A stretch of DNA of 64,000 nt from SAR324 cluster bacterium (GCA_015231825.1 JADGAV010000002.1:9914-73913); one strand, 5' to 3'; shown: positions 33,956 to 63,092, numbered from the stretch's first letter. The notes: a model not told the origin generated them from the letters alone. Made by a program: numbers and translations.

Positions 33956-34089
33956 GGTTTTGGAAACGGGGGAATCCCCTTAGAAATCCAAGGCCCCGGG
34001 AGTATAGGGAAAGAGATGAATTTTGGCGGAAATTCACCTCTTTCCTTTCCGGGCGGCACGCCTTTCGGAATTTCTAAGGGGAGGGGGTT

Positions 34090-35951: not shown

Positions 35952-35960
35952 TTTCAGTTC

Positions 35961-36536: not shown

Positions 36537-36545
36537 TGCTCCTCC

Positions 36546-36737
36546 TTAAGAGCGGTTTCGGAAATTTGGAGATTGAGGTTCTGCTTCCAAAGGCATTTTT
36601 GCAATTGCATCATATTTTTCCTTGGATCCTTTCCGGAAAATCCAGAAAAGCATGAACACAAATAAGGCGAAAAAAATGAGCAATGAAATCACTCCTCCTT
36701 GGGAAGCTCCTGTTTCTGCAAGTATATATTTAAACAT
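36546..36737 (-). CDS. ccoQ: CcoQ/FixQ-like small membrane subunit
   Basis: 63 aa with a single TM 'ISLLIFFALFVFMLFWIF', positioned between ccoNO and ccoP. Confidence 0.5.
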   Translation of the reverse strand: MFKYILAETGASQGGVISLLIFFALFVFMLFWIFRKGSKEKYDAIAKMPLEAEPQSPNFRNRS

Positions 36738-36756
36738 CTTTCCCTTTATTTTGAAA

Positions 36757-39779: not shown

Positions 39780-40835
39780 ATGAAAAGACGCGAATTTATT
39801 AAAAAGGCAGGTGCAGGAGGTGCCGCTGTTGCAGCCGCCAGTGCCATATCAGCTCCCAATGTGATAGCGCAGTCAAAATCACCAATCAAATGGAGACTTC
39901 AGACCTATGCGGGGCCGGCATTGGCTGAACATGTCATTAAACCCTCCATTGATTCTTTCAACAAAGTGGCCAATGGCGAGATGGAAATTGAATTGTATAC
40001 TGCCGATCAGCTGGTACCGACTGGAGAGCTTTTTCGTGCCATGCAGAAAGGAACCATTGATGCTGTTCAAAGTGATGATGATTCCATTGCTGCACCTGTT
40101 GATGTCTCTGTCTTTGGTGGATATTTTCCTTTTGCTACCCGATACAGCCTTGATGTCCCTGTACTCTTCAATCAGTATGGATTGAAGGAAATTTGGGAAG
40201 AGGCCTATGGTGAAGTTGAAGGAGTCACCTGGCTCAGTGCCGGGGCTTGGGATCCCTGTCACTTCAATACGGTTGATCCGATTCATAGCCTTGCTGATTT
40301 GAAAGGAAAGCGCGTTTTTACATTCCCGACCGCAGGGAAATTTCTTTCACGTTTTGGTGTGGTCCCGGTGACGCTCCCGTGGGAAGACATTGAAGTCGCA
40401 GTTCAAACAAAAGAACTGGATGGTATCGCATGGTCAGGAATAACGGAAGATTACACGGTTGGCTGGGCCGATGTGACCAATTATTTTCTCACCAATAATA
40501 TTTCCGGAGCATGGTGCGGATCTTATTTTGCCAATACAGGATCATGGGAAAAAATTCCGGATCACCTAAAAGAACTGTTCCGCCTGTGTATGGACAGTTC
40601 TCATTATTACCGGCAGCATTGGTACTGGGGAGGAGAGGCAAAACTCCGCACAGAAGGGACTAAACTGAAACTGACCAGTATTCCCGACAATGAGTGGAAA
40701 ACCGTTGAAGACGAGGCTCTCAAATTTTGGGATGAAATTGCCAAAACCAGTGAACGGTCGGCCAAGGTGATTAGCATCTTCAAAAAATATGCGGCAACCA
40801 TGTCTAAAGCTGGACGTCCTTACCGATACGAGTAA
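39780..40835 (+). CDS. dctP: TRAP transporter substrate-binding protein (DctP family) with Tat-type signal
   Basis: 'MKRREFIKKAGAGGAAVAAASAISAPNV' twin-arginine leader; DctP-fold body; 351 aa. Confidence 0.8.
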   Translation: MKRREFIKKAGAGGAAVAAASAISAPNVIAQSKSPIKWRLQTYAGPALAEHVIKPSIDSFNKVANGEMEIELYTADQLVPTGELFRAMQKGTIDAVQSDDDSIAAPVDVSVFGGYFPFATRYSLDVPVLFNQYGLKEIWEEAYGEVEGVTWLSAGAWDPCHFNTVDPIHSLADLKGKRVFTFPTAGKFLSRFGVVPVTLPWEDIEVAVQTKELDGIAWSGITEDYTVGWADVTNYFLTNNISGAWCGSYFANTGSWEKIPDHLKELFRLCMDSSHYYRQHWYWGGEAKLRTEGTKLKLTSIPDNEWKTVEDEALKFWDEIAKTSERSAKVISIFKKYAATMSKAGRPYRYE

Positions 40836-40943
40836 TTCGGACTGCAGGATTGTTCTTTTGAGCATTCTCAACTTCCCTGCCTCATAAACCAGGGAAGTTC
40901 CCCTTCTCAAAACTCCTCCGAACCATTCAAAAAAGAGGCTCTT

Positions 40944-41456
40944 TTGCCGAAAGCAATAAAAATTTATGTGCGTTATGTTGAAGCGGTCAATCGGAAAATT
41001 GGCAAAGCAACGATGTATCTGATCTTTGTTATGATGGGCATATTGCTGCTGTCATCATTTTCCAGAATTGCTTTCAATGTCCCCTTCAATTGGACTCTCG
41101 AGATGTCTCAATTTACGATGGCAGCTTATTATTTGTTGGGAGGAGGATATTCCATGATGCTCAAAGGTCATGTCAGAATGGACCTTCTTTATGAACGCTG
41201 GTCCCCTAAAAGAAGGGCAGTCACGGATTTGTTGACATCTTTTTGCCTGATCTTTTATTTGCTGATTCTGCTCTACGGTGCTTATTCGAGTACCGAGTAT
41301 GCGATCAAATACGGGGAAACAAAGCATTCTGCCTGGGCACCCTACATGTGGCCGATCAAATTAATCATGTCGTTCGGAATCGTATTGATGCTTTTGCAGG
41401 CAATTGCTGAATTTTTTAGAGATCTTGCCGCTGCGAGAGGGGAGTCGATCACATGA
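40944..41456 (+). CDS. dctQ: TRAP transporter small permease (DctQ family)
   Basis: 170 aa, 4 TMs; ATGA overlap with dctM. Confidence 0.7.
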   Translation: MPKAIKIYVRYVEAVNRKIGKATMYLIFVMMGILLLSSFSRIAFNVPFNWTLEMSQFTMAAYYLLGGGYSMMLKGHVRMDLLYERWSPKRRAVTDLLTSFCLIFYLLILLYGAYSSTEYAIKYGETKHSAWAPYMWPIKLIMSFGIVLMLLQAIAEFFRDLAAARGESIT

Positions 41457-42775
41457 GTTATGAACTAATTGCTCTGCTGATGTTCTCTTCAATGATGCTC
41501 ATGCTGCTCACCGGGCAGAGAGTATTCGGGGCCATTGGATTTGTTGCCGCAGCCAGTGCTCTCCTCCTCTGGGGAGACGGCGGGTCCGAGATTGCTTTCA
41601 GCGCCAGTGTCAAACTTTTGAATTGGTATCCCTTATTGACCTTACCCCTTTTCATTTACATGGGATACATGCTCTCCGAATCCGGGATAGCAAATGATCT
41701 TTATCGAATGTTTCATGTCTGGATGGGTCCCCTGCATGGAGGCTTGGCAATCGGTACCATTGTCTTAATGGTGGCGATCTCCGCGATGAACGGATTGAGT
41801 GTTGCCGGTATGGCCATAGGGGCGAGTATCGCCATGCCGGAGATGCTCAAAAGGGGGTATGACAAGGTGATGGTCACAGGAGTCATCCAGGCAGGAAGCT
41901 CGCTGGGAATAATGGTCCCTCCCAGTGTCGTTTTAGTCCTTTACGGAATGATTGCCAGACAGCCCGTGGGACGCCTTTGGTTGGCAGGCGTCTTCCCCGG
42001 CTTGCTGTTGGCCTCGCTATTTATTATTTACATTGTTGTTCGCTGCAACATTCAACCCGAACTGGGACCTCCCCTCGCTTTTGAAGAAAGGCAAATGAGT
42101 TGGGGAGAAAAATTCAAATTGCTGAGGGCCGGGATCCTCCCTCTTCTCATTATTTTTTCGATGACCGGCTTGTTTGTTATGGGGATTACCAGTCTCGTTG
42201 AAAGTTCTGCTGTTGGAGCAATTGCAGCGACCCTCTCCGCATTTTTTAAAGGGCGTTTGAACCGGAAAGTGATGGACGATACCCTGCACAAATCTCTCAA
42301 TGTCAGCTGTATGTTCATGTGGGTCATTTTAGCCGCGCTTGCTTTTGCTGCTGTCTTTGATGGACTGGGTGCAGTGAAAGCAATCAAAGCGCTATTTCTG
42401 GATCAATGGGGACTGACCCCCTGGGGAGTGCTGATCATGATGCAGATTTCCTATATCGTTATGGGCATGTTTCTGGATGATACTGCCATGCTGGTCATTG
42501 TCGCGCCGCTCTATGTTCCTCTAGTCATCAGTCTTGGTTTCAATCCAATTTGGTATGGGGTGCTGTACACCGTAACCTGCCAGATTGCTTATATGACTCC
42601 ACCATTTGGTTATAACCTTTTTTTGATGAAAGCAATGGCCCCAAAAGGAGTGAGCCTCGTCGATATTTACAAGTCCATTATTCCTTTTGTGCTGGTGATG
42701 GGTCTTGGATTGATCATCATTATGATGTTTCCACAGATCGCGCTATGGTTGCCCGAATATGTTTACAGGAAATAG
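41453..42775 (+). CDS. dctM: TRAP transporter large permease (DctM family)
   Basis: 440 aa, ~12 TMs, DctM-family conserved Gly/Pro-rich segments. Confidence 0.85.
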   Translation: MSYELIALLMFSSMMLMLLTGQRVFGAIGFVAAASALLLWGDGGSEIAFSASVKLLNWYPLLTLPLFIYMGYMLSESGIANDLYRMFHVWMGPLHGGLAIGTIVLMVAISAMNGLSVAGMAIGASIAMPEMLKRGYDKVMVTGVIQAGSSLGIMVPPSVVLVLYGMIARQPVGRLWLAGVFPGLLLASLFIIYIVVRCNIQPELGPPLAFEERQMSWGEKFKLLRAGILPLLIIFSMTGLFVMGITSLVESSAVGAIAATLSAFFKGRLNRKVMDDTLHKSLNVSCMFMWVILAALAFAAVFDGLGAVKAIKALFLDQWGLTPWGVLIMMQISYIVMGMFLDDTAMLVIVAPLYVPLVISLGFNPIWYGVLYTVTCQIAYMTPPFGYNLFLMKAMAPKGVSLVDIYKSIIPFVLVMGLGLIIIMMFPQIALWLPEYVYRK

Positions 42776-43201: not shown

Positions 43202-43663
43202 ATGCTAAAAAATCTCAATCCCATGCTCACTCCTGAACTCTTGTATGTGCTCCGTGCTATGGGACATGGAGATGAGCTGGTTTTGGTTGATAGTAATTTC
43301 CCTGCAGAATCGAGTGCGGTTCAAACGGTACATGGAAATTTGATCCGCTTGGATGGGAACACGATTGCTGAAGTCGCTGAAGCAGTTTTGTCAGTCTTTC
43401 CATTGGATAGTTTTGTTGAACATCCGTTGCTTTATATGGAAGTTGTCGGAAAACCCAATGAGATGCTGGAAGTGCACCGAGATTTTAAAACAATTGTCGA
43501 CAATCATTCTGATAGAAATTGGAAGATGGCTTCGATTGAACGCTTTGCCTTCTATGAACGTGCCAAACAAGCGTATGCAATTGTTGCAACGACTGAAAGA
43601 AAACCTTATGGAAATTTTGTCTTGGTCAAAGGTGTGATCAACCCTGAAGGCCATGTTGTTTAA
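43202..43663 (+). CDS. fucU: L-fucose mutarotase / RbsD-FucU family pyranase
   Basis: Near-colinear match to E. coli FucU: 'MLK...PELL.VL..MGHGDE', 'RFAFYERAKQA.AIV.T.ER..YGN..L.KGV'. Confidence 0.8.
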   Translation: MLKNLNPMLTPELLYVLRAMGHGDELVLVDSNFPAESSAVQTVHGNLIRLDGNTIAEVAEAVLSVFPLDSFVEHPLLYMEVVGKPNEMLEVHRDFKTIVDNHSDRNWKMASIERFAFYERAKQAYAIVATTERKPYGNFVLVKGVINPEGHVV

Positions 43664-43720
43664 ATCAGGAGACTGTGGCTCAATTTGCGACTACCACAAA
43701 CGTTTTCCGAATGGGATGAA

Positions 43721-44653
43721 ATGGACAAGTTAATCACAATCTTTGGGATATTTGCAGTGGATTTTAATTTTCGCTCAGAGAAGATTCCAATCACGGGCGA
43801 AACTCTGTTGGGTAAATTCAGCACAGGACCGGGAGGAAAAGGTTCAAATCAGGCAATTGCTGCTCGGCGGGCAGGAGGAAACGTTAATTTCATTACTAAA
43901 ATTGGTGTGGATCTTTTCGGTGAAATTGCTCTGGAACGATATAAACAGGAGGGTATCAGGACGGATTTGATCATCCAGGATAAAAATTATCCGACGGGTG
44001 CTGCTGCAATTTTGCTGGAGAATGAAACCGGGAAAAATGCCATTGTCGTCTGTCCGGGAGCTGCATCTGAGTTTACAATCGATGAAATCATGCATAAAGA
44101 ATCCCGGATTCAAACAGCATCCTTTTTTATGACTCAATTGGAAACGCCTTTGACGGTAACATTCCGGGCAATGGAAATTGCAGCAAAACACAAGATTCCG
44201 GTTATTTTGAATCCTGCTCCTGCCAATGAAATACCTTCTTCTGTTTATCCTCTTTGCGATTATTTCATCCCCAATGAAGTGGAAGCATCCAGTCTGGCGG
44301 GAATCCCTGTGAAAGATATCAATGACGCTGAAAAGGCGGCGGACATATTTTTAGAACGAGGTGTTAAAAATGTTATCATTACATTTGGCGAAAAAGGAGT
44401 CCTCGTCAAAAACAAGGACTTACTCGAACATGTCCCTGCCACTCAATTGAGGGATCCTGTTGTGGACACTACCGGGGCAGGAGATGCCTTTAGCGGAAGT
44501 TTTGTTGCTGCCTTGTCACAGGGAAAAGAACTGCCGGATGCCATTCGTTATGCCAACACGGCCGCCGGTATTTCCGTGACCAGGCTGGGAACGGCACTGT
44601 CCGCACCTTATCAGCATGAAATTGAAAAATTATTGCTTCAGGCAATCAATTGA
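43721..44653 (+). CDS. pfkB-family carbohydrate kinase (ribokinase-like)
   Basis: 'GGKGSNQAIAARRAG' and C-terminal 'DTTGAGDAFSGSFVAAL' (anion hole/catalytic Asp) of ribokinase. ATG 43721 aligns with ribokinase N-termini; the track's 43685 start is a TTG extension. Confidence 0.75.
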   Translation: MDKLITIFGIFAVDFNFRSEKIPITGETLLGKFSTGPGGKGSNQAIAARRAGGNVNFITKIGVDLFGEIALERYKQEGIRTDLIIQDKNYPTGAAAILLENETGKNAIVVCPGAASEFTIDEIMHKESRIQTASFFMTQLETPLTVTFRAMEIAAKHKIPVILNPAPANEIPSSVYPLCDYFIPNEVEASSLAGIPVKDINDAEKAADIFLERGVKNVIITFGEKGVLVKNKDLLEHVPATQLRDPVVDTTGAGDAFSGSFVAALSQGKELPDAIRYANTAAGISVTRLGTALSAPYQHEIEKLLLQAIN

Positions 44654-44693
44654 ATCCAATCAGTTCATTGAAAATTAAACAAGGATCGACTAT

Positions 44694-45818
44694 ATGGACC
44701 AGGCCTCCCTACAAAACGAAAATCTCAAAATAACAGATATTAAAGTCTACAAGTTTGATATTCCGCTGAAGGAAATATTTCAAATTGCGACCATGAGTCT
44801 CAGCAATGCCAACAATGTATTGATTAAAATTGAAACCAGCAAAGGCATTGATGGTTGGGGTGAGGCCGCTTCCTTTCATGCACTGGTGGGAGAGACCCAA
44901 TTGATAAATTTTGCGGCTGCCAAAGAAATCAGAGAAATTCTTGTCGGCAGAAATCCATTGGAAATTGAGTCAAATGTTCAGCTAATGGATTCTTACCTCC
45001 CTCACAACACAACGATTAAAAGTGCAATTGATATGGCTCTATATGATATTGCTGCAAAGTGTGCAGGAATGCCGCTATATGCTTTCTTGGGGGGTAAAAA
45101 GCGTGAAATCGAAACAGACATGACCATTGGGATTTGTGATCCAGGGGAAGCTGGAGAAAAGGCATTAGCAATTCTGTCAATGGGATTTAGGATGATCAAA
45201 ATTAAATTGGGTTTAAACTATAATGATGATTTTTTGAGGTTGAAGAACATCCGAGATGCCGTAGGAGAGGAGATCATCCTGAGGGTTGATGCAAATCAGG
45301 GATGGGACCGCATGACGGCAAAAAAAAGCCTCGATGCTTTCAGTCAATTTGATATTGAATTCTGTGAGCAGCCCTGCCGTGCCAGTGACAACAACGGAAT
45401 GAAGTATGTCAGTGAAAATACAAATATTCCGATCATGGCGGACGAATCTTTATTTTCACCGTTTAACGCCCTTCATCTAATTAAGGAAGACGTGGCCCCT
45501 TATTTCAATATCAAATTGTCCAAATCCGGCGGCATTCATAATGCAATAAAAATCAGTCATTTGGCTGAAGCCGGGGGCATTCTTTCCATGGTCGGATGCA
45601 TGTCGGAATCCAGGCTTGGTTTGACAGCGGCAGCGCATTTTAGCTTAAGCAACGAATCGATCAAATTTTTTGATCTGGATTCCTACCTGGAACACTCTGA
45701 AAATCCCGTTGTCGGTGGCATGGAAATAAAAAATGGATTTGTTCAAATGCCGGATGAACCGGGGATTGGGGCTTATCCAGATCCCCACTATATCAAAACC
45801 CTTGAGGAGCATAGATAA
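44694..45818 (+). CDS. Enolase-superfamily (MLE subgroup) enzyme, dipeptide (L-Ala-D/L-Glu) epimerase-like
   Basis: KxK base 'IKIKLG', metal ligands in 'RVDANQGWD' and 'MADESL', second base 'NIKLSKSGG'; capping domain present; 374 aa. Confidence 0.6.
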   Translation: MDQASLQNENLKITDIKVYKFDIPLKEIFQIATMSLSNANNVLIKIETSKGIDGWGEAASFHALVGETQLINFAAAKEIREILVGRNPLEIESNVQLMDSYLPHNTTIKSAIDMALYDIAAKCAGMPLYAFLGGKKREIETDMTIGICDPGEAGEKALAILSMGFRMIKIKLGLNYNDDFLRLKNIRDAVGEEIILRVDANQGWDRMTAKKSLDAFSQFDIEFCEQPCRASDNNGMKYVSENTNIPIMADESLFSPFNALHLIKEDVAPYFNIKLSKSGGIHNAIKISHLAEAGGILSMVGCMSESRLGLTAAAHFSLSNESIKFFDLDSYLEHSENPVVGGMEIKNGFVQMPDEPGIGAYPDPHYIKTLEEHR

Positions 45819-46915
45819 TGCTGGGCCCGGAGATAAAATTTGTAGATCGAGACTACATCTTGTTTGAGAATAAAAAGCTTCTTTACCTTGCCGGGATTGA
45901 TTATCACAGAATGTCCAACAATCCGATCATCATTCAGGCAATGTCAGATGCGGCTCATGAATTCGGATTGAATCCGACAGGTTCTCGAACCACAACGGGA
46001 AATCATTCGCTCTATATTCAGTTGGAAAAAACGGTATCGAATTTTTTTAATTCAGAAGCGGCGGCGGTCTTTGCCAGTGGTTATATTTCCAATATGGTAC
46101 TGCTTCAAACTATCAAAGACGATTTTGACATTTTTTTCATAGATGAGGTCACGCATTCAAGCATGATGGATGCGACGAAACTTTGCGACAAGAAGGTCAT
46201 ATCGTTTAAATATTTGAATCCCCAGCATTTAAAGGAGCAAATTGATAAAAATGTTTCAGCAAACAGCCGGCTTTTGGTAATGACGGATGGTGTTTTTCCG
46301 TCAACAGGTGAAATTCCTCCTTTGAAAGATTACGCCGATGTTGTCAAAAAGTATGACGGAAAAATACTAACCGATGATGCTCATGCAATGGCTGTCATTG
46401 GCAAAACAGGGAAGGGAACTTGGGAGGAAAAAGAATTAAGTAGGGACTTATTTTTTCAAACAGGAACTCTCAGTAAAGGTTTTGGAATTCATGGTGGCGT
46501 CATTCAGGGAGATTCTGATTTAATAAATAACATTCAGGAAAGAAGTGCTGCATTTGCCGGAAGTACAGGCATATCACTGCCGCTTGCTGCCGCGGCAGCA
46601 AAGTCAATTTCATATTTGAAATCCAATCCTCAAATCATTACTGAACTACAGAAAAGTGCACTTGCTCTCAAAGAAAAGTTCAGAGGGATCGGGTTCAAGA
46701 TGCCCAGTAGTCCAGTGCCGATTTTTTCAATCACTTTGGAAGATAGACAAAAAAACCAACGGTTGAAACAGCTTTTGTTGAACAACGGCATCTACCCGCC
46801 ATTCATCAATTATCCCGGTTCTCCTCCAGGAGGTCATTTCAGATTTATCATCACCAGCATCACAACACGCGAACAGATCCAGTTGTTATTTGAAACCATA
46901 AAATCAGCACTCTAA
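45818..46915 (+). CDS. Alpha-oxoamine synthase family PLP enzyme (BioF/Kbl/SPT-like)
   Basis: Aligns with E. coli BioF across 'YL.F.SNDY', 'V.TEGVFSMDGD.APL', 'DDAH..GV.G..G.G' and the Lys block 'TLSKGFGIHGGVI' (BioF 'TFGKGFGVSGAAV'). ATAATG overlap with the upstream epimerase. Confidence 0.65.
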   Translation: MLGPEIKFVDRDYILFENKKLLYLAGIDYHRMSNNPIIIQAMSDAAHEFGLNPTGSRTTTGNHSLYIQLEKTVSNFFNSEAAAVFASGYISNMVLLQTIKDDFDIFFIDEVTHSSMMDATKLCDKKVISFKYLNPQHLKEQIDKNVSANSRLLVMTDGVFPSTGEIPPLKDYADVVKKYDGKILTDDAHAMAVIGKTGKGTWEEKELSRDLFFQTGTLSKGFGIHGGVIQGDSDLINNIQERSAAFAGSTGISLPLAAAAAKSISYLKSNPQIITELQKSALALKEKFRGIGFKMPSSPVPIFSITLEDRQKNQRLKQLLLNNGIYPPFINYPGSPPGGHFRFIITSITTREQIQLLFETIKSAL

Positions 46916-46935: not shown

Positions 46936-47733
46936 TTAAATTATAAACATGATCATCCTCATCACTTCAAAGTAATCTGCAGTTTCAAATACGACAGATT
47001 TTGGCCCGCCTTTTTTCATTCCTGGATAAAATGATGCCTTATACGCGCTAACAGGGTCTCTAAATTTTATTTCAACTTCAAAAAACTCCGGCAACTCGAT
47101 TCGACACATGGAAACGTCTTTTTTAAGTGCTTCCTCAACCCCTGATCTAATTCGTTTGCAAGCTAACTCTGGAGAGATACTCAGGGTAGAGGCACCAATT
47201 CCTTCACTGACAGGGACTGTGTTGATGTGTTCATTGATTGCTTTGACATCTTGACAAATTCCCTTATCACCCGAAACCAAGACAACGGGGACGTTAACAA
47301 AAGCAGACACGTAGGTATGAAGTAGAAATTCGGAAGCGAGTTCTCCATTGATCTTTAAAGAGTCGATTCCCAATACCAGAGTATGAGCCAGTGGATTATT
47401 TTCGGTTCCTGCTTTTGAATGGTAGCCAATCAGAATGCATGCATTAAAGGATTGATCCAACTCCTGAACCATACAAAAAGGATGTCCGCTCCATCCCCTT
47501 ATTAGTCGCGCACAATCAGGAAGACGGGAGGCAATAATGTTCCTTCCTGTATGATGAGCATCCTTGATAAGAATTTCTGAGACTCCAGCATTGATGGCGC
47601 CTTCACAAGCCGATACCACCTCTTCGGTCATCTGTTTTCTGAATTCCTGATACTCAGCGTTTTTGTTCATGGCTTCGTCCCAGTGGGTGATTCCTGTAGT
47701 TCCTTCGATATCGGCACTGATAAATAATTTCAT
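46936..47733 (-). CDS. dppA: M55-family D-aminopeptidase (DppA-like)
   Basis: 'MKLFISADIEGTTGI' N-terminus and overall 265-aa pattern of Bacillus DppA D-aminopeptidase (peptidase M55). Confidence 0.65.
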   Translation of the reverse strand: MKLFISADIEGTTGITHWDEAMNKNAEYQEFRKQMTEEVVSACEGAINAGVSEILIKDAHHTGRNIIASRLPDCARLIRGWSGHPFCMVQELDQSFNACILIGYHSKAGTENNPLAHTLVLGIDSLKINGELASEFLLHTYVSAFVNVPVVLVSGDKGICQDVKAINEHINTVPVSEGIGASTLSISPELACKRIRSGVEEALKKDVSMCRIELPEFFEVEIKFRDPVSAYKASFYPGMKKGGPKSVVFETADYFEVMRMIMFII

Positions 47734-47822: not shown

Positions 47823-48749
47823 CTAAACAGGTGTTTCCTCACGCACAAAATGGGTATCAGAAACCTGTTGCATCGGTAGTTGAATCGGAATGAAATTAGG
47901 AGCCCGCATAGCACTGGGGATTTCGTCAGCGATTAGCATGGAGTCCTTTTTTCGGAGTCGAGGGTCAGGTACTGGTACTGAACCAAACAGTTTTTTGGTG
48001 TAGCTATGCCGTGGGTTCCGAAAAATTGATTGGCGGTCGCCTATTTCTACAATTTCTCCAAGATACATGACTGCAACCCGGTGGGCGATGCGTTCGACAA
48101 CAGCAACATCATGAGAAATAAACAGGAGAGAAATGCCCAATTCGGCTTGCAAATCCATCAGTAGATTGATGACCTTCGCTTGAATTGTAACGTCCAGTGA
48201 GGCCACTGCTTCATCGGCGATTATGAGCTTGGGATCCAATCCCAGGACTCTGGCTATACAAATACGTTGCCTCTGCCCTCCCGAAAAGGCATGAGGATAG
48301 CGATTCATGTGGTCTTTTTCCATATCAACACGCTCCAACAGCTCCTGGACCCGCTGGGGAATCGCATCTTTGGGGATTATTTTATTGACAATCATTGGAT
48401 CCGCGATCGCTTTGCCGACGGTCATGCGTGGATTTAATGAGCTGAAAGGATCTTGAAACACCATTTGAACATTGCGTTGGAAGGTCCTTAAGTTTCGTGA
48501 CGAAACCCCAAGAGTCTCTTTTCCATTGAATTTTATTGAACCGGAACTTGTTTTGTCCAAATGCATAATGCTTCGGGCAATGGTCGATTTTCCGCATCCG
48601 GATTCTCCAACAAGAGCCAGTGTCTCCCCCGGGTAAATATCGAATGAAACATTTTCGACTGCATGGACTCGTCCATATACTCTGCCAAACAGACCTGCTT
48701 TGAGATCGAATCGAGTCACTAAATTTTTAACCTCTATCAATGGTTTCAC
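47823..48749 (-). CDS. dppF: Oligo/dipeptide ABC transporter ATP-binding protein (DppF/OppF-like)
   Basis: Walker A 'GESGCGKST', signature 'FSGGQRQRICIARVL', Walker B 'IIADEAVASLD', C-terminal Opp extension. Confidence 0.85.
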   Translation of the reverse strand: MKPLIEVKNLVTRFDLKAGLFGRVYGRVHAVENVSFDIYPGETLALVGESGCGKSTIARSIMHLDKTSSGSIKFNGKETLGVSSRNLRTFQRNVQMVFQDPFSSLNPRMTVGKAIADPMIVNKIIPKDAIPQRVQELLERVDMEKDHMNRYPHAFSGGQRQRICIARVLGLDPKLIIADEAVASLDVTIQAKVINLLMDLQAELGISLLFISHDVAVVERIAHRVAVMYLGEIVEIGDRQSIFRNPRHSYTKKLFGSVPVPDPRLRKKDSMLIADEIPSAMRAPNFIPIQLPMQQVSDTHFVREETPV

Positions 48750-48810
48750 GATTTGTTCTCCTGAAATTTTTTCACATCAGCCGCAGTCTTTCGTCGGGAT
48801 GTTTTTTTGC

Positions 48811-49683
48811 TCAGTCTTCTTCAAACTCAAGAATTGGAAATTTTTCAGGTTTGTCTTTGTCCGTCATGCTTCCCAATTTTGGAACCGCAGAAATTAAGGC
48901 TCTGGTATAAGGATGTTGGGGATTCTCAAAAATATCATAAACAGATCCCGTTTCAACAAATCTCCCTTTTTGCATCACACAAACACGATCTGCAATTTCG
49001 GCAACCACTCCCATATCGTGGGTGATAAATAAAACGGACATGACAATTTCTTTTTGCAAGGCTCGAATCAGATTGAGAATTTGCGCTTGTATGGTCACAT
49101 CCAGTGCGGTTGATGGTTCGTCTGCAATCAAAAGTACAGGTCGGCAGCTCAATGCCATGGCAATCACGACCCGCTGCCGCATTCCTCCAGACAATTGATG
49201 CGGGTATTGTTTCATCCGTCTTTCCGCGTCAGGAACCCGTACAAGTTGTAAAGTGTTGAATGCAATTTCTTCGGCTTGTTTCGGACTCTTGCCTTGATGG
49301 ATAATAATGGCTTCGGCAATTTGATGCCCCACTGTAAACACTGGATTGAGGCTTGCCATTGGATCTTGAAAAACAATGGAAACATCAGCGCCTCGAATAT
49401 CGTTCATCCTGGAAATTGGCAATTTTACAATGTCGACAATTTCACCTGAGCGCAGGCGCAAATGGATGGCCCCCTCATTGATGCGGGCCCCATCGTGCTC
49501 GGGGAGTCGCATGATTGTCATTGCAGTCACCGATTTTCCGCTTCCTGATTCACCAACAAGCGCCAGAGTTTCCCCTTGGTCAATATGAAATGAAACCCCT
49601 TTTACTGCATCAACTGTCACATTGTCACTGAGGGAAAATGAGACATGAAGGTTTTCGACTTCAACGATCTTGTTTTTATCCAT
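48811..49683 (-). CDS. dppD: Oligo/dipeptide ABC transporter ATP-binding protein (DppD/OppD-like)
   Basis: Walker A 'GESGSGKSV', signature '[15 protein letters not shown]', Walker B '[11 protein letters not shown]'. Confidence 0.85.
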
Positions 49684-49797: not shown

Positions 49798-51450
49798 TCA
49801 GGAACGGCGTGCGAGAAACATTGGGCCGACCCGAATGCCGGGCTGTCCATTTTCGTCGTTAGCACCGAGTTCCAAAATTTCGTCAGGATAGAGAGAACCG
49901 TTCATTTTAAAGCGGTTATTTCCCAAAGGAGTGCAGATATGGCTGTAAAAGTATTCTATCAAACACGTCAAGTTGCCATTTTGAAAAGATAGGGTGGTTA
50001 TATTGATATCCGGTCCGTAGGTTCCGAGGTGAGGCTCCAGCTCCGGATCGACCGGAGTTTCGTCAATCACTTGGGTTTTATCCCAACTTTGATTTTTCCA
50101 TATCATTTTTCCGGACAGGGAGAAATCAAGATCAAGGAATTCATAGTCGGAGCCTTCACCATAGAGGCGACCATCAACACCGAACTGATTCCCAGTCTTT
50201 GGTTTAATCTGCAGGGGCATTCCGTCGCCGAGAAGAAAGAGCTTTCCATTGCGTTCAATAATTTCCACAATTTCATTGTTTTCCTGATTTTTGTAGTGAC
50301 CCGGCAAAGTTTGAAAATGCTCTGTTGAAACTTTTTGATAGGTTCTTCGTGGCATCGGCGGTGACCCCATATTCATGGCTGCAAGCGCCATTCGGAGTCC
50401 GCTATCCGCCAAATGATTGACGATATTGTTGGTCATATCCATTGTTGAAATAATTTCAATGGCCAAACCAGCCAGAGGCAGCAAGGATATTTGGGAGGCA
50501 AATCCGTAAACAGCACCCCCATGTCCGACGGAACGCCAAGCATCCAATTGACTGACACCAAACCCCAATCCGTAGTCACTGAGCCCTGGATACCCTTGAG
50601 GACGATGACCCACAACCGTCCACATTTGCTCCAATGATGAAGGAGACACGATGCGGTGACCCTCCGGGGTGAAGCCTCCACGCAGCAAACAGATCATATA
50701 GCGTGACATATCAGATAAAGTGGAATAAATGTTTCCTGCCGGAAAACCTCCGAGATCAAAAACGGGTGCTGGCACATCACTATCGACCGTCCACATATAA
50801 GCAGGGGCCAAATTTGCGAGAATTGTGGGATTTGAAGAGATTGAACTGTCAGACATACCAAGAGGTTTCAGTATATTTTCGCTTAGGTAGTCCGCATAGG
50901 TCTGCCCGGAAACACGCTCAACTACGGAACCAACGACCGCCATACCCGCGTTGGAATAGCTGAATATACCGGCGCTGGGATCATTTTTAAGAACGGAGCT
51001 GGCCAATTCATTGACGGTTTTTTCAAGCGGTGGATTGCTGTCATCGAGATAGTGTCCGCTCTTCGGTTCGCGGACCATGCCTGCGGTATGGCTCATCAGT
51101 TTTCGCAACGTGACCTCGTCTCCCAGTGGTCCGGCATTTTCCCCGGAAAATGGATTTTTTGGCCGGAAATCCGGAAGGTAGTTTGAGACGTCGACATCAA
51201 GATCGATTAATCCTTGTTCCACCAACTGCATCAGGCAGATACTGGTAAACATTTTTGTTTGAGAAGCAATTCGAAACCGGGTTTTATCAGTAAATTGATG
51301 GTTGAGACCTTTGCGCTGCATCGTCCCTGTCGCAAGCATTCCATCTCTGCTGACAAGGGAATAAGAGATTGAAGGCAGATTCTTGTCTTCTACTTCAAAT
51401 GCGATTTTGTCTTCAAATTGTTGCTGATTAAAATTGTCGATTTTGGTCAT
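49798..51450 (-). CDS. Beta-lactamase-fold serine hydrolase with C-terminal beta-barrel domains (DAP-type D-aminopeptidase-like)
   Basis: Ser-x-x-Lys 'ASQTKMFTS' ~70 aa from the start, 'YSN' and 'HGG' motifs, ~200-aa C-terminal extension as in Ochrobactrum D-aminopeptidase. The start is ATG 51450 (MTKIDNF); the track's longer ORF overlaps dppC out of frame. Confidence 0.6.
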   Translation of the reverse strand: MTKIDNFNQQQFEDKIAFEVEDKNLPSISYSLVSRDGMLATGTMQRKGLNHQFTDKTRFRIASQTKMFTSICLMQLVEQGLIDLDVDVSNYLPDFRPKNPFSGENAGPLGDEVTLRKLMSHTAGMVREPKSGHYLDDSNPPLEKTVNELASSVLKNDPSAGIFSYSNAGMAVVGSVVERVSGQTYADYLSENILKPLGMSDSSISSNPTILANLAPAYMWTVDSDVPAPVFDLGGFPAGNIYSTLSDMSRYMICLLRGGFTPEGHRIVSPSSLEQMWTVVGHRPQGYPGLSDYGLGFGVSQLDAWRSVGHGGAVYGFASQISLLPLAGLAIEIISTMDMTNNIVNHLADSGLRMALAAMNMGSPPMPRRTYQKVSTEHFQTLPGHYKNQENNEIVEIIERNGKLFLLGDGMPLQIKPKTGNQFGVDGRLYGEGSDYEFLDLDFSLSGKMIWKNQSWDKTQVIDETPVDPELEPHLGTYGPDINITTLSFQNGNLTCLIEYFYSHICTPLGNNRFKMNGSLYPDEILELGANDENGQPGIRVGPMFLARRS

Positions 51451-51460
51451 AACTGATTTC

Positions 51461-52336
51461 CTATTTGTGTATGGTATGAGGGTCCAGCACATCCCGCAGC
51501 GCGTCTCCAACGAGATTCCATGAAAAAACGAACAGGAATATCGCCATTCCCGGGAAAAACAAAGTGTACCAATATTTAAATGGATCGTCGCCTTGACCGA
51601 CGATCCAATTTCGGGAATAACTGATAAACTGGCCCCAGTCAGCATATCCTTCTTCAGTTCCCACACCTAAAAAACTCAATGCCGACGCGGCGAGTACCAT
51701 GGATCCTGTTGCCATGGTCGCCAATACCAAAACTGGAAAAAATGCGTTGGGAAGAATAAAGCGAAAAATCAACGAGAAGTCATTGACACCATAAGTTCGC
51801 GCTGCCTGAATGAATTCCATCTCTTTGATGCGCAGAATTTCACTGCGGATAACCCGGGCATAACTCATCCAGCCGAAGGCGGATAGAGCGATTATCATCG
51901 GCCCCAGTCCTTTGCCCAACAGGGTTGTTAAAACCATTGCCGCGATTAAAAATGGCACTGCCATAAAAACATCGACGACTCGCATTAGAACTTCATCGAT
52001 GATACCACCATAGAAGGCAGCAATTGAACCGACAATGATGCCAATTATGGATGAGACAAGAACAACGCCGAGCCCCACCTTAAATGCAGTCCGGGTTCCC
52101 CAAACCAATCCGTAATAGATGTCATACTGTCCTTGTGTTGTGCCTAAAAAATGATCTTTGGACATAGCTTGCGGTGTCGCCCAAAATGATGAGCGCGGGG
52201 TCTCATATGGGCTCAGTTGGAAGGATTGGGGGGGAGCAATGATTGGAGCCAACGCGGCAACCATCACGAATAACAGTAGTGATACAATCCCAAAACTCGA
52301 GAGTGGATTTTTGAGCAGATATTTAAAAACTTTCAT
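51461..52336 (-). CDS. dppC: Oligo/dipeptide ABC permease (DppC/OppC-like)
   Basis: 291 aa, 6 TMs, EAA-like loop 'IQAARTYGVNDFSLIFRFILPN'. Confidence 0.85.
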   Translation of the reverse strand: MKVFKYLLKNPLSSFGIVSLLLFVMVAALAPIIAPPQSFQLSPYETPRSSFWATPQAMSKDHFLGTTQGQYDIYYGLVWGTRTAFKVGLGVVLVSSIIGIIVGSIAAFYGGIIDEVLMRVVDVFMAVPFLIAAMVLTTLLGKGLGPMIIALSAFGWMSYARVIRSEILRIKEMEFIQAARTYGVNDFSLIFRFILPNAFFPVLVLATMATGSMVLAASALSFLGVGTEEGYADWGQFISYSRNWIVGQGDDPFKYWYTLFFPGMAIFLFVFSWNLVGDALRDVLDPHTIHK

Positions 52337-53370
52337 TTGAGCACCACCCTTGGATCAATGAGGGGATACAAAAGATCAACCACTAAATTCAATAAAACGA
52401 GCACCAATGCAAAATAGAGGGCAAAGCCTAAAACTGCAGGAAAATCGAGATTGGCTGCCGCGTGAGCAGCGAATTGACCCAAACCATGGTAGTCAAAAAT
52501 CGTTTCAGTAATAACAACGCCTCCCATCATATAAGCTAATTCCATTCCCGCCATGGTGGTGACAGGCAACAACGCATTTCGACGAGCATGTTTGTTTTGC
52601 ACAATTTTTTCAGACAAACCTTTGGCGCGGGCGGTACGAATATAATCTTGACGCAAGGTTTCCAGCATACTGGTGCGCATCACTCGCGTCATGTTTGCCA
52701 AATTGACGTAGGTTAGCGTGATTATTGGGGCAATCAAATGGCGAAGCGAATCCAGGAAAATCTGCCATCGTCCATTGAGCAGCGAGTCAATCAAATTAGC
52801 ACCTGTATAACGAATAAAATTACCGCTTTCGACTTCTGTAACTGCCCATTGAGAAAGGCGTCCTGGAGGGAACCAGTTAAGGTAGCCGTAAAATATGAGG
52901 AGCATGATCAAGCCAAAAACAAAGGTAGGGAAAGACCAGCCGAGGATTGTAAATATTCGAATTGCATGATCTTTTGGCCTGTTTAAATTGGCACCAGCCT
53001 TGGTACCCAGCCAGACCGCACCCAGAAAACTGGGAATAAAGGCCAGAATTACCAGTTCAACCGTGGCTGGGAATAATGAAATAAGGACTTCGGAAACCGG
53101 TGATCGTGCTGTTTCGGACCAGCCTAAATTTCCGCTCAAAATGTTTTGGATCCATTCCCAATATTGGGTAAGAAAAGGTTCGTCCAATCCATATTTTTTG
53201 ATTAGCGCCTCTATTTGCTCGCGACCTCCTTTCAATTCGGAGTTACTGGTAATGTAGGCGGATATTCGCTGGACGGGTGACAAAAGCATTTGTAGACTGA
53301 AAATCATCAACGATAATGCAATGAACACCACAGGGAAAAACAGCAATCTCCGAAAAACGTAATTTACCAT
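52333..53370 (-). CDS. dppB: Oligo/dipeptide ABC permease (DppB/OppB-like)
   Basis: 345 aa, 6 TMs, 'DYIRTARAKGLSEKIVQNKHARRNALLP' EAA motif; ATGA overlap with dppC. Confidence 0.85.
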   Translation of the reverse strand: MVNYVFRRLLFFPVVFIALSLMIFSLQMLLSPVQRISAYITSNSELKGGREQIEALIKKYGLDEPFLTQYWEWIQNILSGNLGWSETARSPVSEVLISLFPATVELVILAFIPSFLGAVWLGTKAGANLNRPKDHAIRIFTILGWSFPTFVFGLIMLLIFYGYLNWFPPGRLSQWAVTEVESGNFIRYTGANLIDSLLNGRWQIFLDSLRHLIAPIITLTYVNLANMTRVMRTSMLETLRQDYIRTARAKGLSEKIVQNKHARRNALLPVTTMAGMELAYMMGGVVITETIFDYHGLGQFAAHAAANLDFPAVLGFALYFALVLVLLNLVVDLLYPLIDPRVVLK

Positions 53371-56889: not shown

Positions 56890-56907
56890 TGGGTCTAGTG
56901 GAAAAGG

Positions 56908-58422: not shown

Positions 58423-58432
58423 TTGTTTCCTC

Positions 58433-59431: not shown

Positions 59432-59467
59432 GGCTGAATTTTCGCTAAATCTTTGTTTATCGAATTG

Positions 59468-60235: not shown

Positions 60236-60248
60236 TTTTAATCCTCAA

Positions 60249-63070: not shown

Positions 63071-63092
63071 TTCCCCTCGTCCGCCACCGGGA

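What the first reader, a model, noticed from the sequence alone, without database searches (positions are those of the whole stretch)
43202..46915. Unusual operon: FucU mutarotase, pfkB kinase, MLE-type enolase-superfamily enzyme, and a translationally coupled alpha-oxoamine synthase
Alpha-oxoamine synthases (BioF, Kbl, SPT, ALAS) condense an amino acid with an acyl-CoA. Here one overlaps (ATAATG) a dipeptide-epimerase-like gene, right after a sugar mutarotase and a ribokinase-like kinase. I know of no described pathway that combines these four activities. The options are a novel amino-sugar or aminoketone route, or an AONS-family enzyme working on a peptide-derived amino acid. There is no biotin context (bioA/D/B) nearby.
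Basis: partly seen in the sequence, partly recalled or inferred. Interest (0 to 1): 0.55.

Follow-up and report, generated by a model that had tools for sequence, protein, structure and literature searches.

The report
Dipeptide epimerase coupled to orphan PLP enzyme
The four genes are real, but only the last two (a dipeptide-epimerase-type enzyme and a divergent BioF/Kbl-like PLP enzyme) form a conserved, uncharacterised pair, found in at least ten bacterial phyla beside genes for importing and cutting D-amino-acid or cell-wall peptides; the sugar mutarotase and ribokinase are ordinary local neighbours.

Summary
All four ORFs, the ATAATG stop/start overlap and the absence of biotin genes are confirmed. 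The window comes from a SAR324 MAG.

The four-gene block is not a conserved unit. In 48 loci from other genomes and metagenomes that carry the last two genes side by side, FucU, the ribokinase and the upstream TRAP system occur 0 times. Close FucU homologues sit in unrelated sugar contexts.

The core is a two-gene cassette:
- An enolase-superfamily enzyme with every dipeptide-epimerase hallmark (KxK, D/E/D, K, DxD). Its closest solved relative is the Cytophaga hutchinsonii D-Ala-D/L-Ala epimerase.
- A 365-aa alpha-oxoamine-synthase (AOS)-fold PLP enzyme. It is 22-26% identical to BioF, Kbl and SPT, scores below every curated cutoff, and lacks several canonical substrate motifs.

The pair is adjacent in about 60 loci from at least 10 phyla, often with the same 1-nt overlap. 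It recurs with Opp/Dpp importers, S12 D-peptidase-like proteins, DUF819 transporters and NamZ.

Best reading: a salvage cassette for D-amino-acid (cell-wall-derived) dipeptides. The PLP step is unknown. My leading guess (about 0.25) is epimerisation of the N-terminal residue. I found no paper describing the pairing. Interest is moderate to high.

The parts
44694..45818 (+). Dipeptide-epimerase-type enolase-superfamily (MLE subgroup) enzyme, 374 aa. First gene of the conserved cassette.
   Evidence: Pfam MR_MLE_N and MR_MLE_C. Best PDB matches are 3q45/3q4d (C. hutchinsonii, E 4.5e-80), 3jva and 1jpm/1tkk (YkfB). UniRef names the 3q45 protein D-Ala-D/L-Ala epimerase. K169xK171, D199, E225, D250, K274 and D327xD329 are invariant in 33 orthologues, and Met34 replaces YkfB Arg24.
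45818..46915 (+). Divergent alpha-oxoamine-synthase-fold PLP enzyme, 365 aa. Second gene of the cassette. Its reaction is unknown.
   Evidence: Pfam Aminotran_1_2. It scores below the bioF, Kbl, SPT, ALAS and CqsA cutoffs. The AF2 model has pLDDT 90 and TM 0.86-0.90 to SPT, ALAS, Kbl and BioF. H113, D186, H189, K220 and R342 are invariant in 53 partners (D187 in 52), while the canonical NDYLGL and FSMDG motifs are altered.
45816..45820 (+). TAATG stop/start overlap (translational coupling).
   Evidence: Sequence read. The computed gap is -1 (the same 1-nt overlap) in 11 other loci with the MLE>AOS order.
43202..43663 (+). RbsD/FucU-family sugar mutarotase/pyranase. A lineage-specific neighbour, not part of the conserved cassette.
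   Evidence: PF05025. PDB matches 2ob5 and FucU 3mvk. Found in 0 of 48 cassette loci. Homologues lie in other contexts.
43685..44653 (+). Ribokinase. A lineage-specific neighbour. The true start may be the ATG at about 43721.
   Evidence: TIGR02152 at 317 bits, above the 299.65 cutoff. PDB ribokinases at E 3e-55. Found in 0 of 48 cassette loci.
46936..47733 (-). M55 D-aminopeptidase (DppA type). Last gene of the convergent peptide-uptake operon.
   Evidence: PF04951, E 1.9e-88.
47823..49683 (-). Two Opp/Dpp-type ABC ATPases.
   Evidence: ABC_tran plus oligo_HPY.
49798..51666 (-). S12 (beta-lactamase-fold) D-peptidase-like protein. The ORF start is probably over-extended.
   Evidence: PF00144. 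Best PDB matches are alkaline D-peptidase 4y7p, S12 peptidase 3wwx and R61 DD-carboxypeptidase. The ORF overlaps the permease ORF by 206 nt.
51461..53370 (-). Two Opp/Dpp-type permeases.
   Evidence: BPD_transp_1.
53463..55406 (-). Family-5 (peptide-type) solute-binding protein.
   Evidence: PF00496.
39780..42775 (+). TRAP transporter DctPQM upstream on the same strand. Not part of the conserved cassette.
   Evidence: Pfam DctP, DctQ and DctM. The SBP matches PDB 4uab/4xf5 at E 8e-167, roughly three quarters identical by eye from the printed alignment. Found in 0 of 48 cassette loci.

Best explanation
The locus is a juxtaposition of two units.

(1) FucU/RbsD-family mutarotase plus ribokinase is an ordinary pentose (ribose) salvage pair native to this SAR324 lineage.

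(2) The MLE gene and the PLP gene form a conserved, translationally coupled two-gene cassette that serves the uptake and use of D-amino-acid-containing dipeptides, most plausibly cell-wall-derived ones such as D-Ala-D-Ala and relatives.

Proposed flow:
- S12 and M55 D-stereospecific peptidases trim the peptides.
- An importer brings them in. Here this is the convergent Dpp-type ABC system. Elsewhere it is Opp/Dpp, DUF819, branched-chain-type ABC, SSF or TRAP.
- The enolase-type enzyme uses Mg2+ and two lysines to epimerise the C-terminal residue of the dipeptide.
- The AOS-fold PLP enzyme acts on the same dipeptide-like skeleton.

My committed guess for the PLP step: it forms an aldimine with the free N-terminal amine (an alpha-amino amide resembles the alpha-amino ketone products of this family) and epimerises the N-terminal residue. 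The two enzymes together would convert D,D or D,L dipeptides into L,L dipeptides that ordinary dipeptidases can cleave.

Shown:
- gene identities
- conservation and coupling of the pair
- non-conservation of FucU and ribokinase next to it
- dipeptide-epimerase active-site hallmarks
- AOS fold with an intact PLP site but altered substrate motifs
- peptide/D-peptidase neighbourhood

Inferred:
- the identity of the substrate
- the direction of flux
- the whole PLP step

Probabilities: cassette belongs to dipeptide/D-peptide salvage, about 0.6. PLP enzyme is an N-terminal epimerase, about 0.25.
For: Pair conservation:
- The genes are adjacent on the same strand in 31 of about 37 evaluable genome loci from Bacteroidota, Ignavibacteriota, Planctomycetota, Calditrichota, Spirochaetota, Acidobacteriota, Methylomirabilota, Armatimonadota and others. 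Both gene orders occur.
- In the reverse survey starting from the MLE gene, 8 of 9 evaluable loci with MLE at 52% identity or more have the PLP gene adjacent. So do 19 of 43 with MLE at 42-51% identity, paired with correspondingly divergent AOS-like genes.
- The 1-nt overlap recurs.

MLE enzyme: all YkfB catalytic, metal and ammonium-binding residues are invariant (residue roles from 10.1101/2022.05.01.490185, and PMC5808125). The closest solved homologue is annotated as D-Ala-D/L-Ala epimerase.

Neighbours in the 48 pair loci:
- S12 beta-lactamase-fold proteins: 12
- DUF819: 10
- Opp/Dpp permeases: 6
- Opp-type ATPases: 10
- NamZ exo-muramidase: 5
- FucU, RbsK and TRAP: 0

In Holophagaceae and Methylomirabilis the order SBP5-permease-permease-ATPase-ATPase-AOS-MLE lies on one strand. 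In L015 an M20 peptidase takes the place of the MLE gene next to a TRAP system and the AOS-like gene.

In the window, a Dpp-type ABC operon with an S12 D-peptidase-like protein and an M55 D-aminopeptidase ends 20 nt from the PLP gene.

PLP enzyme: it has the AOS fold. The PLP ligands and Arg342 are invariant, but the Asn of NDYLGL, the Ser of FSMDG and the N-terminal helix are lost. No acyl-CoA-related gene recurs next to the pair.
Against: - No biochemical data exist for any member.
- No PLP-dependent peptide epimerase is known. None appears in the 2018 review read.
- Retention of the Arg that binds the amino-acid carboxylate in canonical AOS enzymes fits a free amino-acid substrate equally well.
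- About a third of the pair loci show no recognisable peptide gene within the DNA held, and many of those contigs are short.
- Transporter types vary (DUF819, SSF, branched-chain-type ABC), so the substrate could be a small amino-acid derivative rather than a dipeptide.
- The C. hutchinsonii D-Ala-D/L-Ala epimerase gene has no AOS-like neighbour.
- L051 has Pta, a 3-hydroxyacyl-CoA dehydrogenase and Ack immediately upstream, which hints at acyl-CoA chemistry.
- L-Ser dehydratase and a D-Cys-desulfhydrase-like enzyme in some clusters are unexplained.
Confidence: 0.5

Rival explanations
1. Canonical alpha-oxoamine synthase chemistry on a peptide-derived amino acid. After epimerisation and hydrolysis of the dipeptide, the PLP enzyme condenses the released amino acid (Ala, Gly or Ser) with an acyl-CoA to give an alpha-amino ketone, either as a metabolite or a signal.
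For: AOS fold, and all PLP residues plus the carboxylate-binding Arg342 are invariant. Enzyme families usually keep their chemistry. L051 has Pta, 3HCDH and Ack upstream.
Against: - The canonical Asn that binds the substrate carboxylate, the FSMDG Ser and the N-terminal helix are lost.
- No acyl-CoA-supplying gene and no aminoketone-consuming gene recurs near the pair.
- Decarboxylative condensation has no obvious use in a catabolic or import context.
- It would not explain strict coupling to an epimerase.
Confidence: 0.2
2. Kbl-like reverse reaction. The PLP enzyme cleaves a 2-amino-3-oxo acid with CoA into glycine plus an acyl-CoA, as the last step of a catabolic route.
For: The Kbl reaction is reversible and catabolic (established knowledge). 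Pta and Ack lie next to the pair in L051. The Kbl model scores about as well as the others.
Against: There is no dehydrogenase (Tdh-like) in the window, and none recurs near the pair. The score is far below the Kbl cutoff (209 against 460). A dipeptide epimerase has no role in such a route.
Confidence: 0.08
3. Pseudodipeptide route. The AOS-like enzyme condenses an amino acid with a carboxy-acyl-CoA to make a ketomethylene dipeptide mimic (as KtmB does in ketomemicin biosynthesis, or ALAS making the Gly-Gly mimic 5-aminolevulinate). The dipeptide-epimerase-like enzyme then epimerises that mimic.
For: AOS products carrying a distal carboxylate are isosteres of dipeptides (established chemistry; the ketomemicin and ALA/Dpp examples are from memory). 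This would explain why the two families act together.
Against: The neighbours are SBP-dependent importers and peptidases, not biosynthetic genes. No CoA ligase or carboxylase recurs. The distribution among necromass-degrading heterotrophs fits catabolism better.
Confidence: 0.07
4. One novel four-enzyme amino-sugar or aminoketone pathway that uses FucU, kinase, MLE and AONS together.
For: The four genes are tightly spaced on one strand, with no predicted terminator between them.
Against: FucU and ribokinase are absent from all 48 other pair loci. FucU homologues at 69-75% identity lie in other contexts, one of them with a PfkB kinase in a sugar cluster. The kinase passes the ribokinase equivalog cutoff. 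The MLE gene is 81% identical to a Bacteroidota copy, which suggests the cassette arrived by transfer.
Confidence: 0.03
5. The PLP gene is simply this organism's BioF (biotin synthesis), placed next to the epimerase by chance.
For: bioF is the top NCBIfam model.
Against: - It scores 244.7 bits against a cutoff of 426.45.
- It is 22.5% identical to E. coli BioF.
- No bioA or bioB is present in the window.
- Adjacency to the MLE gene is conserved across at least 10 phyla.
Confidence: 0.02

Closest known systems
Dipeptide epimerases of the enolase superfamily (B. subtilis YkfB and E. coli YcjG L-Ala-D/L-Glu epimerases; C. hutchinsonii D-Ala-D/L-Ala epimerase, PDB 3q45)
   Same: The fold is the same, and so are all catalytic lysines, metal ligands and the DxD ammonium-binding motif. 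The genomic setting is similar: B. subtilis dppA(M55)-dppBCDE-ykfABCD (from memory), and here M55 DppA plus a Dpp ABC system next to the epimerase.
   Different: The window enzyme is only about 40% identical to 3q45. Met34 replaces the Glu-binding Arg24 of YkfB. It scores below both L-Ala-D/L-Glu epimerase equivalog cutoffs. It is obligatorily paired with an AOS-like gene, which none of the characterised members is (for C. hutchinsonii).
Alpha-oxoamine synthases (BioF, Kbl, SPT, ALAS, CqsA)
   Same: Fold-type I PLP fold with TM 0.86-0.90. The Schiff-base Lys, the stacking His, the Asp-x-His pair and the C-terminal Arg are all present.
   Different: - It is 22-26% identical to the references, less than they are to one another.
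- It scores below all curated cutoffs.
- NDYLGL is replaced by (I/T)DYHR(M/L), and FSMDG by FP(A/S)xG.
- The N-terminal helix is absent, giving 365 aa against 384-400.
- The context is peptide import, not biotin, threonine, sphingolipid, haem or quorum sensing.
D-to-L amino-acid conversion modules that pair an acyl-CoA-dependent enzyme with an MLE-type racemase (Geobacillus N-succinyltransferase/NSAR/hydrolase; DgcN-DgcA for D-Glu). Recalled from memory; DgcA is in NCBIfam.
   Same: An enolase-superfamily racemase or epimerase teams up with a second enzyme to make D-amino acids usable.
   Different: Those partners are GNAT-type N-acyltransferases and the racemase acts on N-acyl amino acids. 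Here the MLE enzyme keeps the DxD motif for a free ammonium group, and the partner is a PLP enzyme.
E. coli rbsD-rbsK (ribose pyranase plus ribokinase)
   Same: An RbsD/FucU-family protein lies next to a bona fide ribokinase.
   Different: The mutarotase is closer to FucU than to RbsD and is below both equivalog cutoffs. No rbsACB genes are adjacent.

Membership tests
Alpha-oxoamine synthase (AOS) superfamily | Fold-type I PLP fold of BioF, Kbl, SPT and ALAS | tested here: met
   AF2 model with pLDDT 90.2. Foldseek TM 0.86-0.90 to SPT, ALAS, Kbl, ThAOS and BioF.
Alpha-oxoamine synthase (AOS) superfamily | PLP ligands: Schiff-base Lys, stacking His, Asp to the pyridine N, His to O3' | tested here: met
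   K220, H113 and H189 are invariant in all 53 cassette partners; D187 is conserved in 52 of 53 (one Glu). They align with BioF K236, H133, D204 and H207.
Alpha-oxoamine synthase (AOS) superfamily | Canonical substrate motifs N-D-Y-L-G-L (Asn binds the amino-acid carboxylate) and F-S-M-(D/E)-G | tested here: not met
   Position 27 is I/T (N in 7 of 53). The core family has DYHR(M/L). Position 161 is Pro in 36 of 53. The residue roles are from memory of the AONS and ALAS structures.
Alpha-oxoamine synthase (AOS) superfamily | Acyl-CoA-dependent Claisen condensation activity | not testable with these tools
   Needs an enzyme assay.
BioF (8-amino-7-oxononanoate synthase) | Passes the curated equivalog model, with a biotin gene context | tested here: not met
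   TIGR00858 scores 244.7 against a cutoff of 426.45. Identity to E. coli BioF is 22.5%. No bioA or bioB in the window.
Kbl (glycine C-acetyltransferase) | Passes the curated equivalog model, with tdh as partner | tested here: not met
   NF005394 scores 209.5 against a cutoff of 460. No Tdh homologue in the window.
Serine palmitoyltransferase / ALAS / CqsA | Passes the curated equivalog models | tested here: not met
   SPT 204 against 500, ALAS 185 against 338.55, CqsA 135.6 against 428.
Dipeptide epimerase family (enolase superfamily, MLE subgroup) | KxK on strand 2, Lys on strand 6, D/E/D metal ligands, and DxD motif for the dipeptide ammonium group | tested here: met
   K169xK171, K274, D199/E225/D250 and D327xD329 are invariant in 33 orthologues.
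Dipeptide epimerase family (enolase superfamily, MLE subgroup) | Epimerisation of a dipeptide in vitro | not testable with these tools
   Needs an assay. The closest characterised homologue is about 40% identical.
L-Ala-D/L-Glu epimerase (YkfB/YcjG type) | Passes the equivalog model, with an Arg in the capping loop binding the Glu side chain | tested here: not met
   NF041118 scores 234.8 against 500, and NF011708 scores 102.5 against 343. Met34 sits in place of Arg24 and is invariant.
Ribokinase | Passes the curated equivalog model | tested here: met
   TIGR02152 scores 317.2 against a cutoff of 299.65. PDB ribokinases match at E 3e-55. The GGKGxNQA and DTTGAGD motifs are visible in the translation.
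L-fucose mutarotase FucU / ribose pyranase RbsD | Passes an equivalog model | tested here: not met
   FucU scores 109.4 against 141, and RbsD scores 39.3 against 93. Only the Pfam family PF05025 is met.

The most novel reading that the evidence does not exclude
The AOS-fold protein is a new kind of PLP enzyme that works on intact dipeptides. It would bind the N-terminal amine as an aldimine and invert the N-terminal residue. Together with the Mg-dependent enolase-type epimerase, which inverts the C-terminal residue, it would form a widespread two-enzyme cassette that turns D,D dipeptides such as D-Ala-D-Ala into L,L dipeptides. That would be a previously unrecognised route by which heterotrophs, including deep-ocean SAR324, use D-amino-acid peptides from bacterial necromass.
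Probability: 0.22. Interest if true: 0.8.

Novelty: new variant of a known kind. Interest (0 to 1): 0.6.

Why it matters
D-amino-acid peptides from peptidoglycan are a large pool of organic nitrogen and carbon in soils and oceans, and that pool is hard to degrade. How most bacteria use it is poorly known.

Here a dipeptide epimerase is strictly coupled to an orphan AOS-family PLP enzyme across at least 10 phyla. That marks a missing enzymatic step that can now be tested directly, because two cultured carriers exist: Portibacter lacus and Novipirellula herctigrandis.

For enzymology, this is a well-populated AOS subfamily with an intact cofactor site but altered substrate motifs. It is a candidate for chemistry outside the BioF/Kbl/SPT/ALAS repertoire.

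For annotation, these proteins are currently labelled '8-amino-7-oxononanoate synthase' or 'glycine C-acetyltransferase' in public records. That label is almost certainly wrong.

Tried and rejected
- **Single-protein genome scan.** It found nothing. The scan with an alignment worked.
- **Papers not held.** Lukk 2012, Vetting 2015, Kalyanaraman 2008 and Gerlt 2012 could not be read. Statements about D-Ala-D-Ala epimerase kinetics, the 4uab ligand and the B. subtilis dpp-ykf operon therefore rest on memory, apart from the UniRef name seen.
- **Literature searches.** Searches pairing 'dipeptide epimerase' with 'oxoamine synthase' or '8-amino-7-oxononanoate synthase' returned no papers.
- **Characterised epimerase context.** I tested whether the C. 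hutchinsonii epimerase has an AOS-like neighbour. It does not.
- **Thioesterase lead.** A 4HBT thioesterase plus acyltransferase next to MLE relatives looked like an acyl-CoA clue. Those loci carry no AOS-like gene and look like a single syntenic lineage (my reading of their shared gene order), so I dropped it.
- **RNA elements.** The Rfam scan of the whole window, including the 426-nt leader upstream of FucU, gave no hit.
- **Promoter and terminator scan.** It gave fewer sites than shuffled sequence and was uninformative.
- **Base composition.** There is no anomaly around the cassette, so horizontal transfer is inferred only from the 81% identity of the MLE gene and 68% of the PLP gene to Bacteroidota copies.
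- **Naive ORF calling.** It failed in high-GC loci, so adjacency counts rely on tblastn.

Full report
**Observation**

The window belongs to a SAR324 cluster MAG: the PLP protein is 100% identical to an NCBI SAR324 entry on a 381-kb contig.
- 43202-43663 is an RbsD/FucU-family protein (PF05025, E 2e-39).
- 43685-44653 is a pfkB kinase that passes NCBI's ribokinase equivalog (TIGR02152, 317.2 bits against a cutoff of 299.65). Solved ribokinases match it at E 3e-55.
- 44694-45818 carries both MR/MLE domains.
- 45818-46915 is an Aminotran_1_2 protein whose best NCBIfam models are bioF, Kbl and SPT.

The MLE stop codon and the PLP start codon share one base (GATAATGCTG). No BioA, BioB or Tdh homologue exists in the 64 kb. 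No Rfam family matches anywhere, including the 426-nt gap upstream of FucU.

**Surroundings**

Upstream on the same strand is a TRAP transporter, DctPQM, at 39780-42775.

Downstream, 20 nt after the PLP gene and convergent to it, a seven-gene operon ends. It encodes:
- a family-5 solute-binding protein;
- two BPD_transp_1 permeases;
- a 622-aa S12 beta-lactamase-fold protein, whose best solved relatives are alkaline D-peptidase 4y7p, other S12 D-stereospecific peptidases and the R61 DD-carboxypeptidase;
- two ABC ATPases with the oligo_HPY domain;
- an M55 D-aminopeptidase (DppA type, E 1.9e-88).

The nearest functional context of the MLE and PLP genes is therefore uptake and cleavage of D-amino-acid peptides.

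**Is the four-gene block conserved? No.**

A scan of 185,579 species genomes with an alignment of the PLP family returned 48 loci. Look-ups of three homologues added three more. A metagenome scan seeded with the MLE family returned 80 loci.

Forty-eight loci carry an MLE gene and an AOS-like gene (at least 33% identical to the window's) side by side. None of the 48 has a FucU, ribokinase or TRAP homologue within the DNA held, which averages 12.9 kb per locus.

From the other direction, FucU homologues of 69-75% identity, from marine deltaproteobacterial or SAR324-like contigs, lie in unrelated neighbourhoods. One sits next to a PfkB kinase inside a LacI/SIS/xylose-isomerase-like sugar cluster. 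None is near an MLE or AOS gene.

An RbsD/FucU protein beside a ribokinase is the classical ribose-salvage arrangement (E. coli rbsD...rbsK, established knowledge). The window's MLE protein is 81% identical to a Bacteroidota MAG copy and the PLP protein 68%, while the next-best PLP homologue in 5.8 billion proteins is that same Bacteroidota sequence. I infer that the cassette reached this SAR324 lineage by transfer and landed next to a native sugar pair.

**What is conserved: the MLE/PLP pair**

- Among genome loci with enough flanking DNA, 31 of about 37 have the two genes adjacent on one strand.
- The carriers span Bacteroidota (including the isolate Portibacter lacus), Ignavibacteriota, Planctomycetota (including the isolate Novipirellula herctigrandis), Calditrichota, Spirochaetota, Acidobacteriota, Methylomirabilota, Armatimonadota and MAGs labelled Eubacteriales, plus SAR324 here.
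- Both gene orders occur. In the MLE>PLP order the computed gap is -1 (the same 1-nt overlap) in 11 other loci and -4 to -31 in seven more.
- The MLE partner is more conserved (52-81% identity) than the PLP partner (36-68%).
- The reverse survey gives the same answer. Of the metagenome loci whose MLE is at least 52% identical to the window's and that have usable flanks, 8 of 9 carry the PLP gene next door. Of those at 42-51%, 19 of 43 carry a correspondingly more divergent AOS-like gene.

The two families have been linked for a long evolutionary time.

**The MLE enzyme**

Its best solved relatives are all dipeptide epimerases:
- 3q45/3q4d from C. hutchinsonii (E 4.5e-80), which UniRef names D-Ala-D/L-Ala epimerase;
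- 3jva from E. faecalis;
- YkfB, 1jpm/1tkk.

Every functional residue of YkfB aligns and is invariant in 33 cassette orthologues:
- the KxK motif (K169, K171);
- the metal ligands (D199, E225, D250);
- the second catalytic lysine (K274);
- the DxD pair that holds the dipeptide's alpha-ammonium group (D327, D329).

The residue roles come and from PMC5808125.

YkfB's Arg24 binds the Glu side chain. It is replaced by an invariant Met34, and both L-Ala-D/L-Glu epimerase equivalog cutoffs are missed. This is a dipeptide epimerase by all sequence criteria, but not an Ala-Glu one. A small or hydrophobic C-terminal residue is more likely (inference).

**The PLP enzyme**

An AlphaFold model (pLDDT 90.2) superposes on SPT, ALAS, Kbl, ThAOS and BioF at TM 0.86-0.90 and 18-27% identity, with no preference among them.
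- Sequence identity to E. coli BioF, E. coli Kbl and S. multivorum SPT is 22.5, 25.4 and 26.2%. Those three are 32-39% identical to one another.
- An HMM built from half of the family scores held-out members at 432-587 bits, the divergent MLE-paired relatives at 292-350, and SPT, Kbl and BioF at 226-242.
- All NCBIfam equivalog cutoffs are missed by a wide margin.

The protein is therefore a separate clade, and does not fall 'squarely inside BioF or Kbl'.

The cofactor site is intact. H113, H189, K220 and the C-terminal Arg342 are invariant in all 53 cassette partners; D187 is conserved in 52 of 53. The substrate-facing motifs are changed:
- NDYLGL becomes (I/T)DYHR(M/L), losing the Asn and gaining a His-Arg pair in the core family.
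- FSMDG becomes FP(A/S)xG.
- The N-terminal helix present in BioF, Kbl and ALAS is missing, giving 365 aa.

The roles of those canonical residues are recalled from the AONS, ALAS and SPT structural literature, not tested here.

**Neighbours of the pair**

Among the 48 pair loci:

| Neighbour | Loci |
|---|---|
| S12 beta-lactamase-fold proteins (often with DUF3471 or a type-IX secretion tail) | 12 |
| DUF819 membrane transporters (CPA/AT superfamily) | 10 |
| Opp/Dpp permeases | 6 |
| Opp-type ATPases | 10 |
| NamZ exo-beta-N-acetylmuramidase, a peptidoglycan-recycling enzyme | 5 |
| L-serine dehydratase | 3 |
| D-Cys-desulfhydrase-like PALP enzyme | 2 |

SusC/SusD with an anti-sigma factor appears in two loci (inferred from the sequences; only SusD is confirmed by Pfam).

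Further points on the neighbourhood:
- In Holophagaceae and Methylomirabilis the order SBP5-permease-permease-ATPase-ATPase-AOS-MLE lies on one strand.
- Spirochaetia use a branched-chain-type ABC system. L050 uses an SSF symporter.
- L015 has TRAP-AOS-M20 peptidase with no MLE gene.
- No dehydrogenase, CoA ligase, thiolase or other acyl-CoA enzyme recurs. L051, with Pta/3HCDH/Ack upstream, is a single case.
- Relatives of the MLE gene that lack an AOS-like neighbour sit beside Opp permeases, S12 proteins and, twice each, D-Ala-D-Ala ligase and alanine racemase.

**Interpretation**

The consistent picture is an importer, plus two cytoplasmic enzymes, plus or minus D-stereospecific peptidases and muramidase. 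That is salvage of D-amino-acid-containing, probably wall-derived, small peptides.

The epimerase step is well grounded: Mg2+-stabilised enolate, two-lysine 1,1-proton transfer at the C-terminal residue.

The PLP step is not. I considered five options.
- (a) Epimerisation of the N-terminal residue of the same dipeptide.
- (b) Canonical Claisen condensation of a released amino acid with an acyl-CoA.
- (c) Kbl-like thiolysis.
- (d) Synthesis of a ketomethylene dipeptide mimic.
- (e) Beta-elimination on an N-terminal Ser or Cys.

I favour (a), at about 0.25, for these reasons:
- Both families bind the skeleton H3N+-CHR-CO-X-...-COO-. AOS products are alpha-amino ketones, and a dipeptide is the aza analogue.
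- AOS enzymes already make and reprotonate a C-alpha carbanion.
- The lost Asn and the gained His-Arg fit a substrate whose carboxylate is farther away.
- No acyl-CoA partner recurs.
- Two enzymes would then suffice to hand an L,L dipeptide to housekeeping dipeptidases. In L015 a dipeptidase-family gene takes the epimerase's place.

Against it:
- No PLP-dependent peptide epimerase is known. None is listed in the 2018 review.
- Arg342 is retained.
- The characterised C. hutchinsonii epimerase works without such a partner.

**Novelty and verdict**

Full-text searches found no paper that links a dipeptide epimerase with an alpha-oxoamine synthase. Public annotations call these proteins 8-amino-7-oxononanoate synthase, glycine C-acetyltransferase or a generic aminotransferase.

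What survives is a widespread, tightly coupled gene pair of unknown joint function, built from two well-known superfamilies. I class this as a new variant of a known kind. It has moderate-to-high interest and a clear experimental path, because two cultured organisms carry it.

Noticed in passing
window 39780-40835 (+), with DctQ 40944-41456 and DctM 41453-42775: The TRAP solute-binding protein matches PDB 4uab/4xf5 at E 8e-167, roughly three quarters identical by eye from the printed alignment. From memory, that is the Chromohalobacter salexigens Csal_0678 SBP solved with ethanolamine and with (S)-2-aminopropanol. This level of identity is unusually high for SAR324 against a gammaproteobacterium. 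The system may import a small amino alcohol rather than a carboxylate. It is absent from all other cassette loci.
   Followed up: partly
window 49798-51666 (-): The 622-aa S12 ORF overlaps the upstream permease ORF (51461-52336) by 206 nt. Its Pfam domain starts only at residue 115, and PDB alignments start at residue 73 or later. The real start is probably the Met at about residue 73 (MTKIDNF...), which gives a protein of about 550 aa.
   Followed up: partly
window 43685-43721: The ribokinase ORF as listed begins with TTG. An in-frame ATG 12 codons downstream (MDKLITIFG...) lies just before the Pfam match and is a more likely start.
   Followed up: no
window 30735-38889 (-): A cbb3-type cytochrome oxidase region. 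It holds a 710-aa ORF that looks like a fused CcoN-CcoO and a 191-aa dihaem CcoP-like ORF (both read from the translations only). By Pfam it also holds a FixG-like 4Fe-4S protein, a DsbD_2-family protein and a FixI-type P-type ATPase.
   Followed up: partly
window 55930-63737: A CUT2/BMP-type ABC transporter: two BPD_transp_2 permeases and a 504-aa double ATPase, with no binding protein seen. It could import ribose or nucleosides for the FucU and ribokinase pair. It is followed by an SDR, an acyl-CoA dehydrogenase, a CoA-transferase and a TetR regulator.
   Followed up: partly
L074:4526-8004: One metagenome locus has two different AOS-like genes flanking a single MLE gene, next to Opp-type SBP and permease genes. 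The upstream copy is closer to canonical Kbl and SPT (32-34% identity).
   Followed up: partly
L001, L003, L009 (Bacteroidota/Ignavibacteriota): In these clusters the pair is followed by DUF819, an S12 protein and an L-serine dehydratase. In L003 and L009 a D-Cys-desulfhydrase/ACC-deaminase-family PLP enzyme also lies between the pair and DUF819. This hints that Ser or Cys, or their D-forms, may be products of the pathway. It remains unexplained.
   Followed up: no
L100, L101, L110, L116, L119, L123, L126, L128, L130: A sister group of MLE genes (44-47% identical to the window's) is followed by a 170-aa 4HBT thioesterase and a PF01553 acyltransferase. It has no AOS-like neighbour. It looks like one syntenic lineage with a different, unknown role.
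   Followed up: partly
L041-L046 (Flavobacterium spp.): A different AOS-family clade (26% identical to the window's) shares only the GSRxTTGNH motif with the cassette family. It sits in a conserved, unrelated neighbourhood that includes a protein of about 1,420 aa.
   Followed up: no
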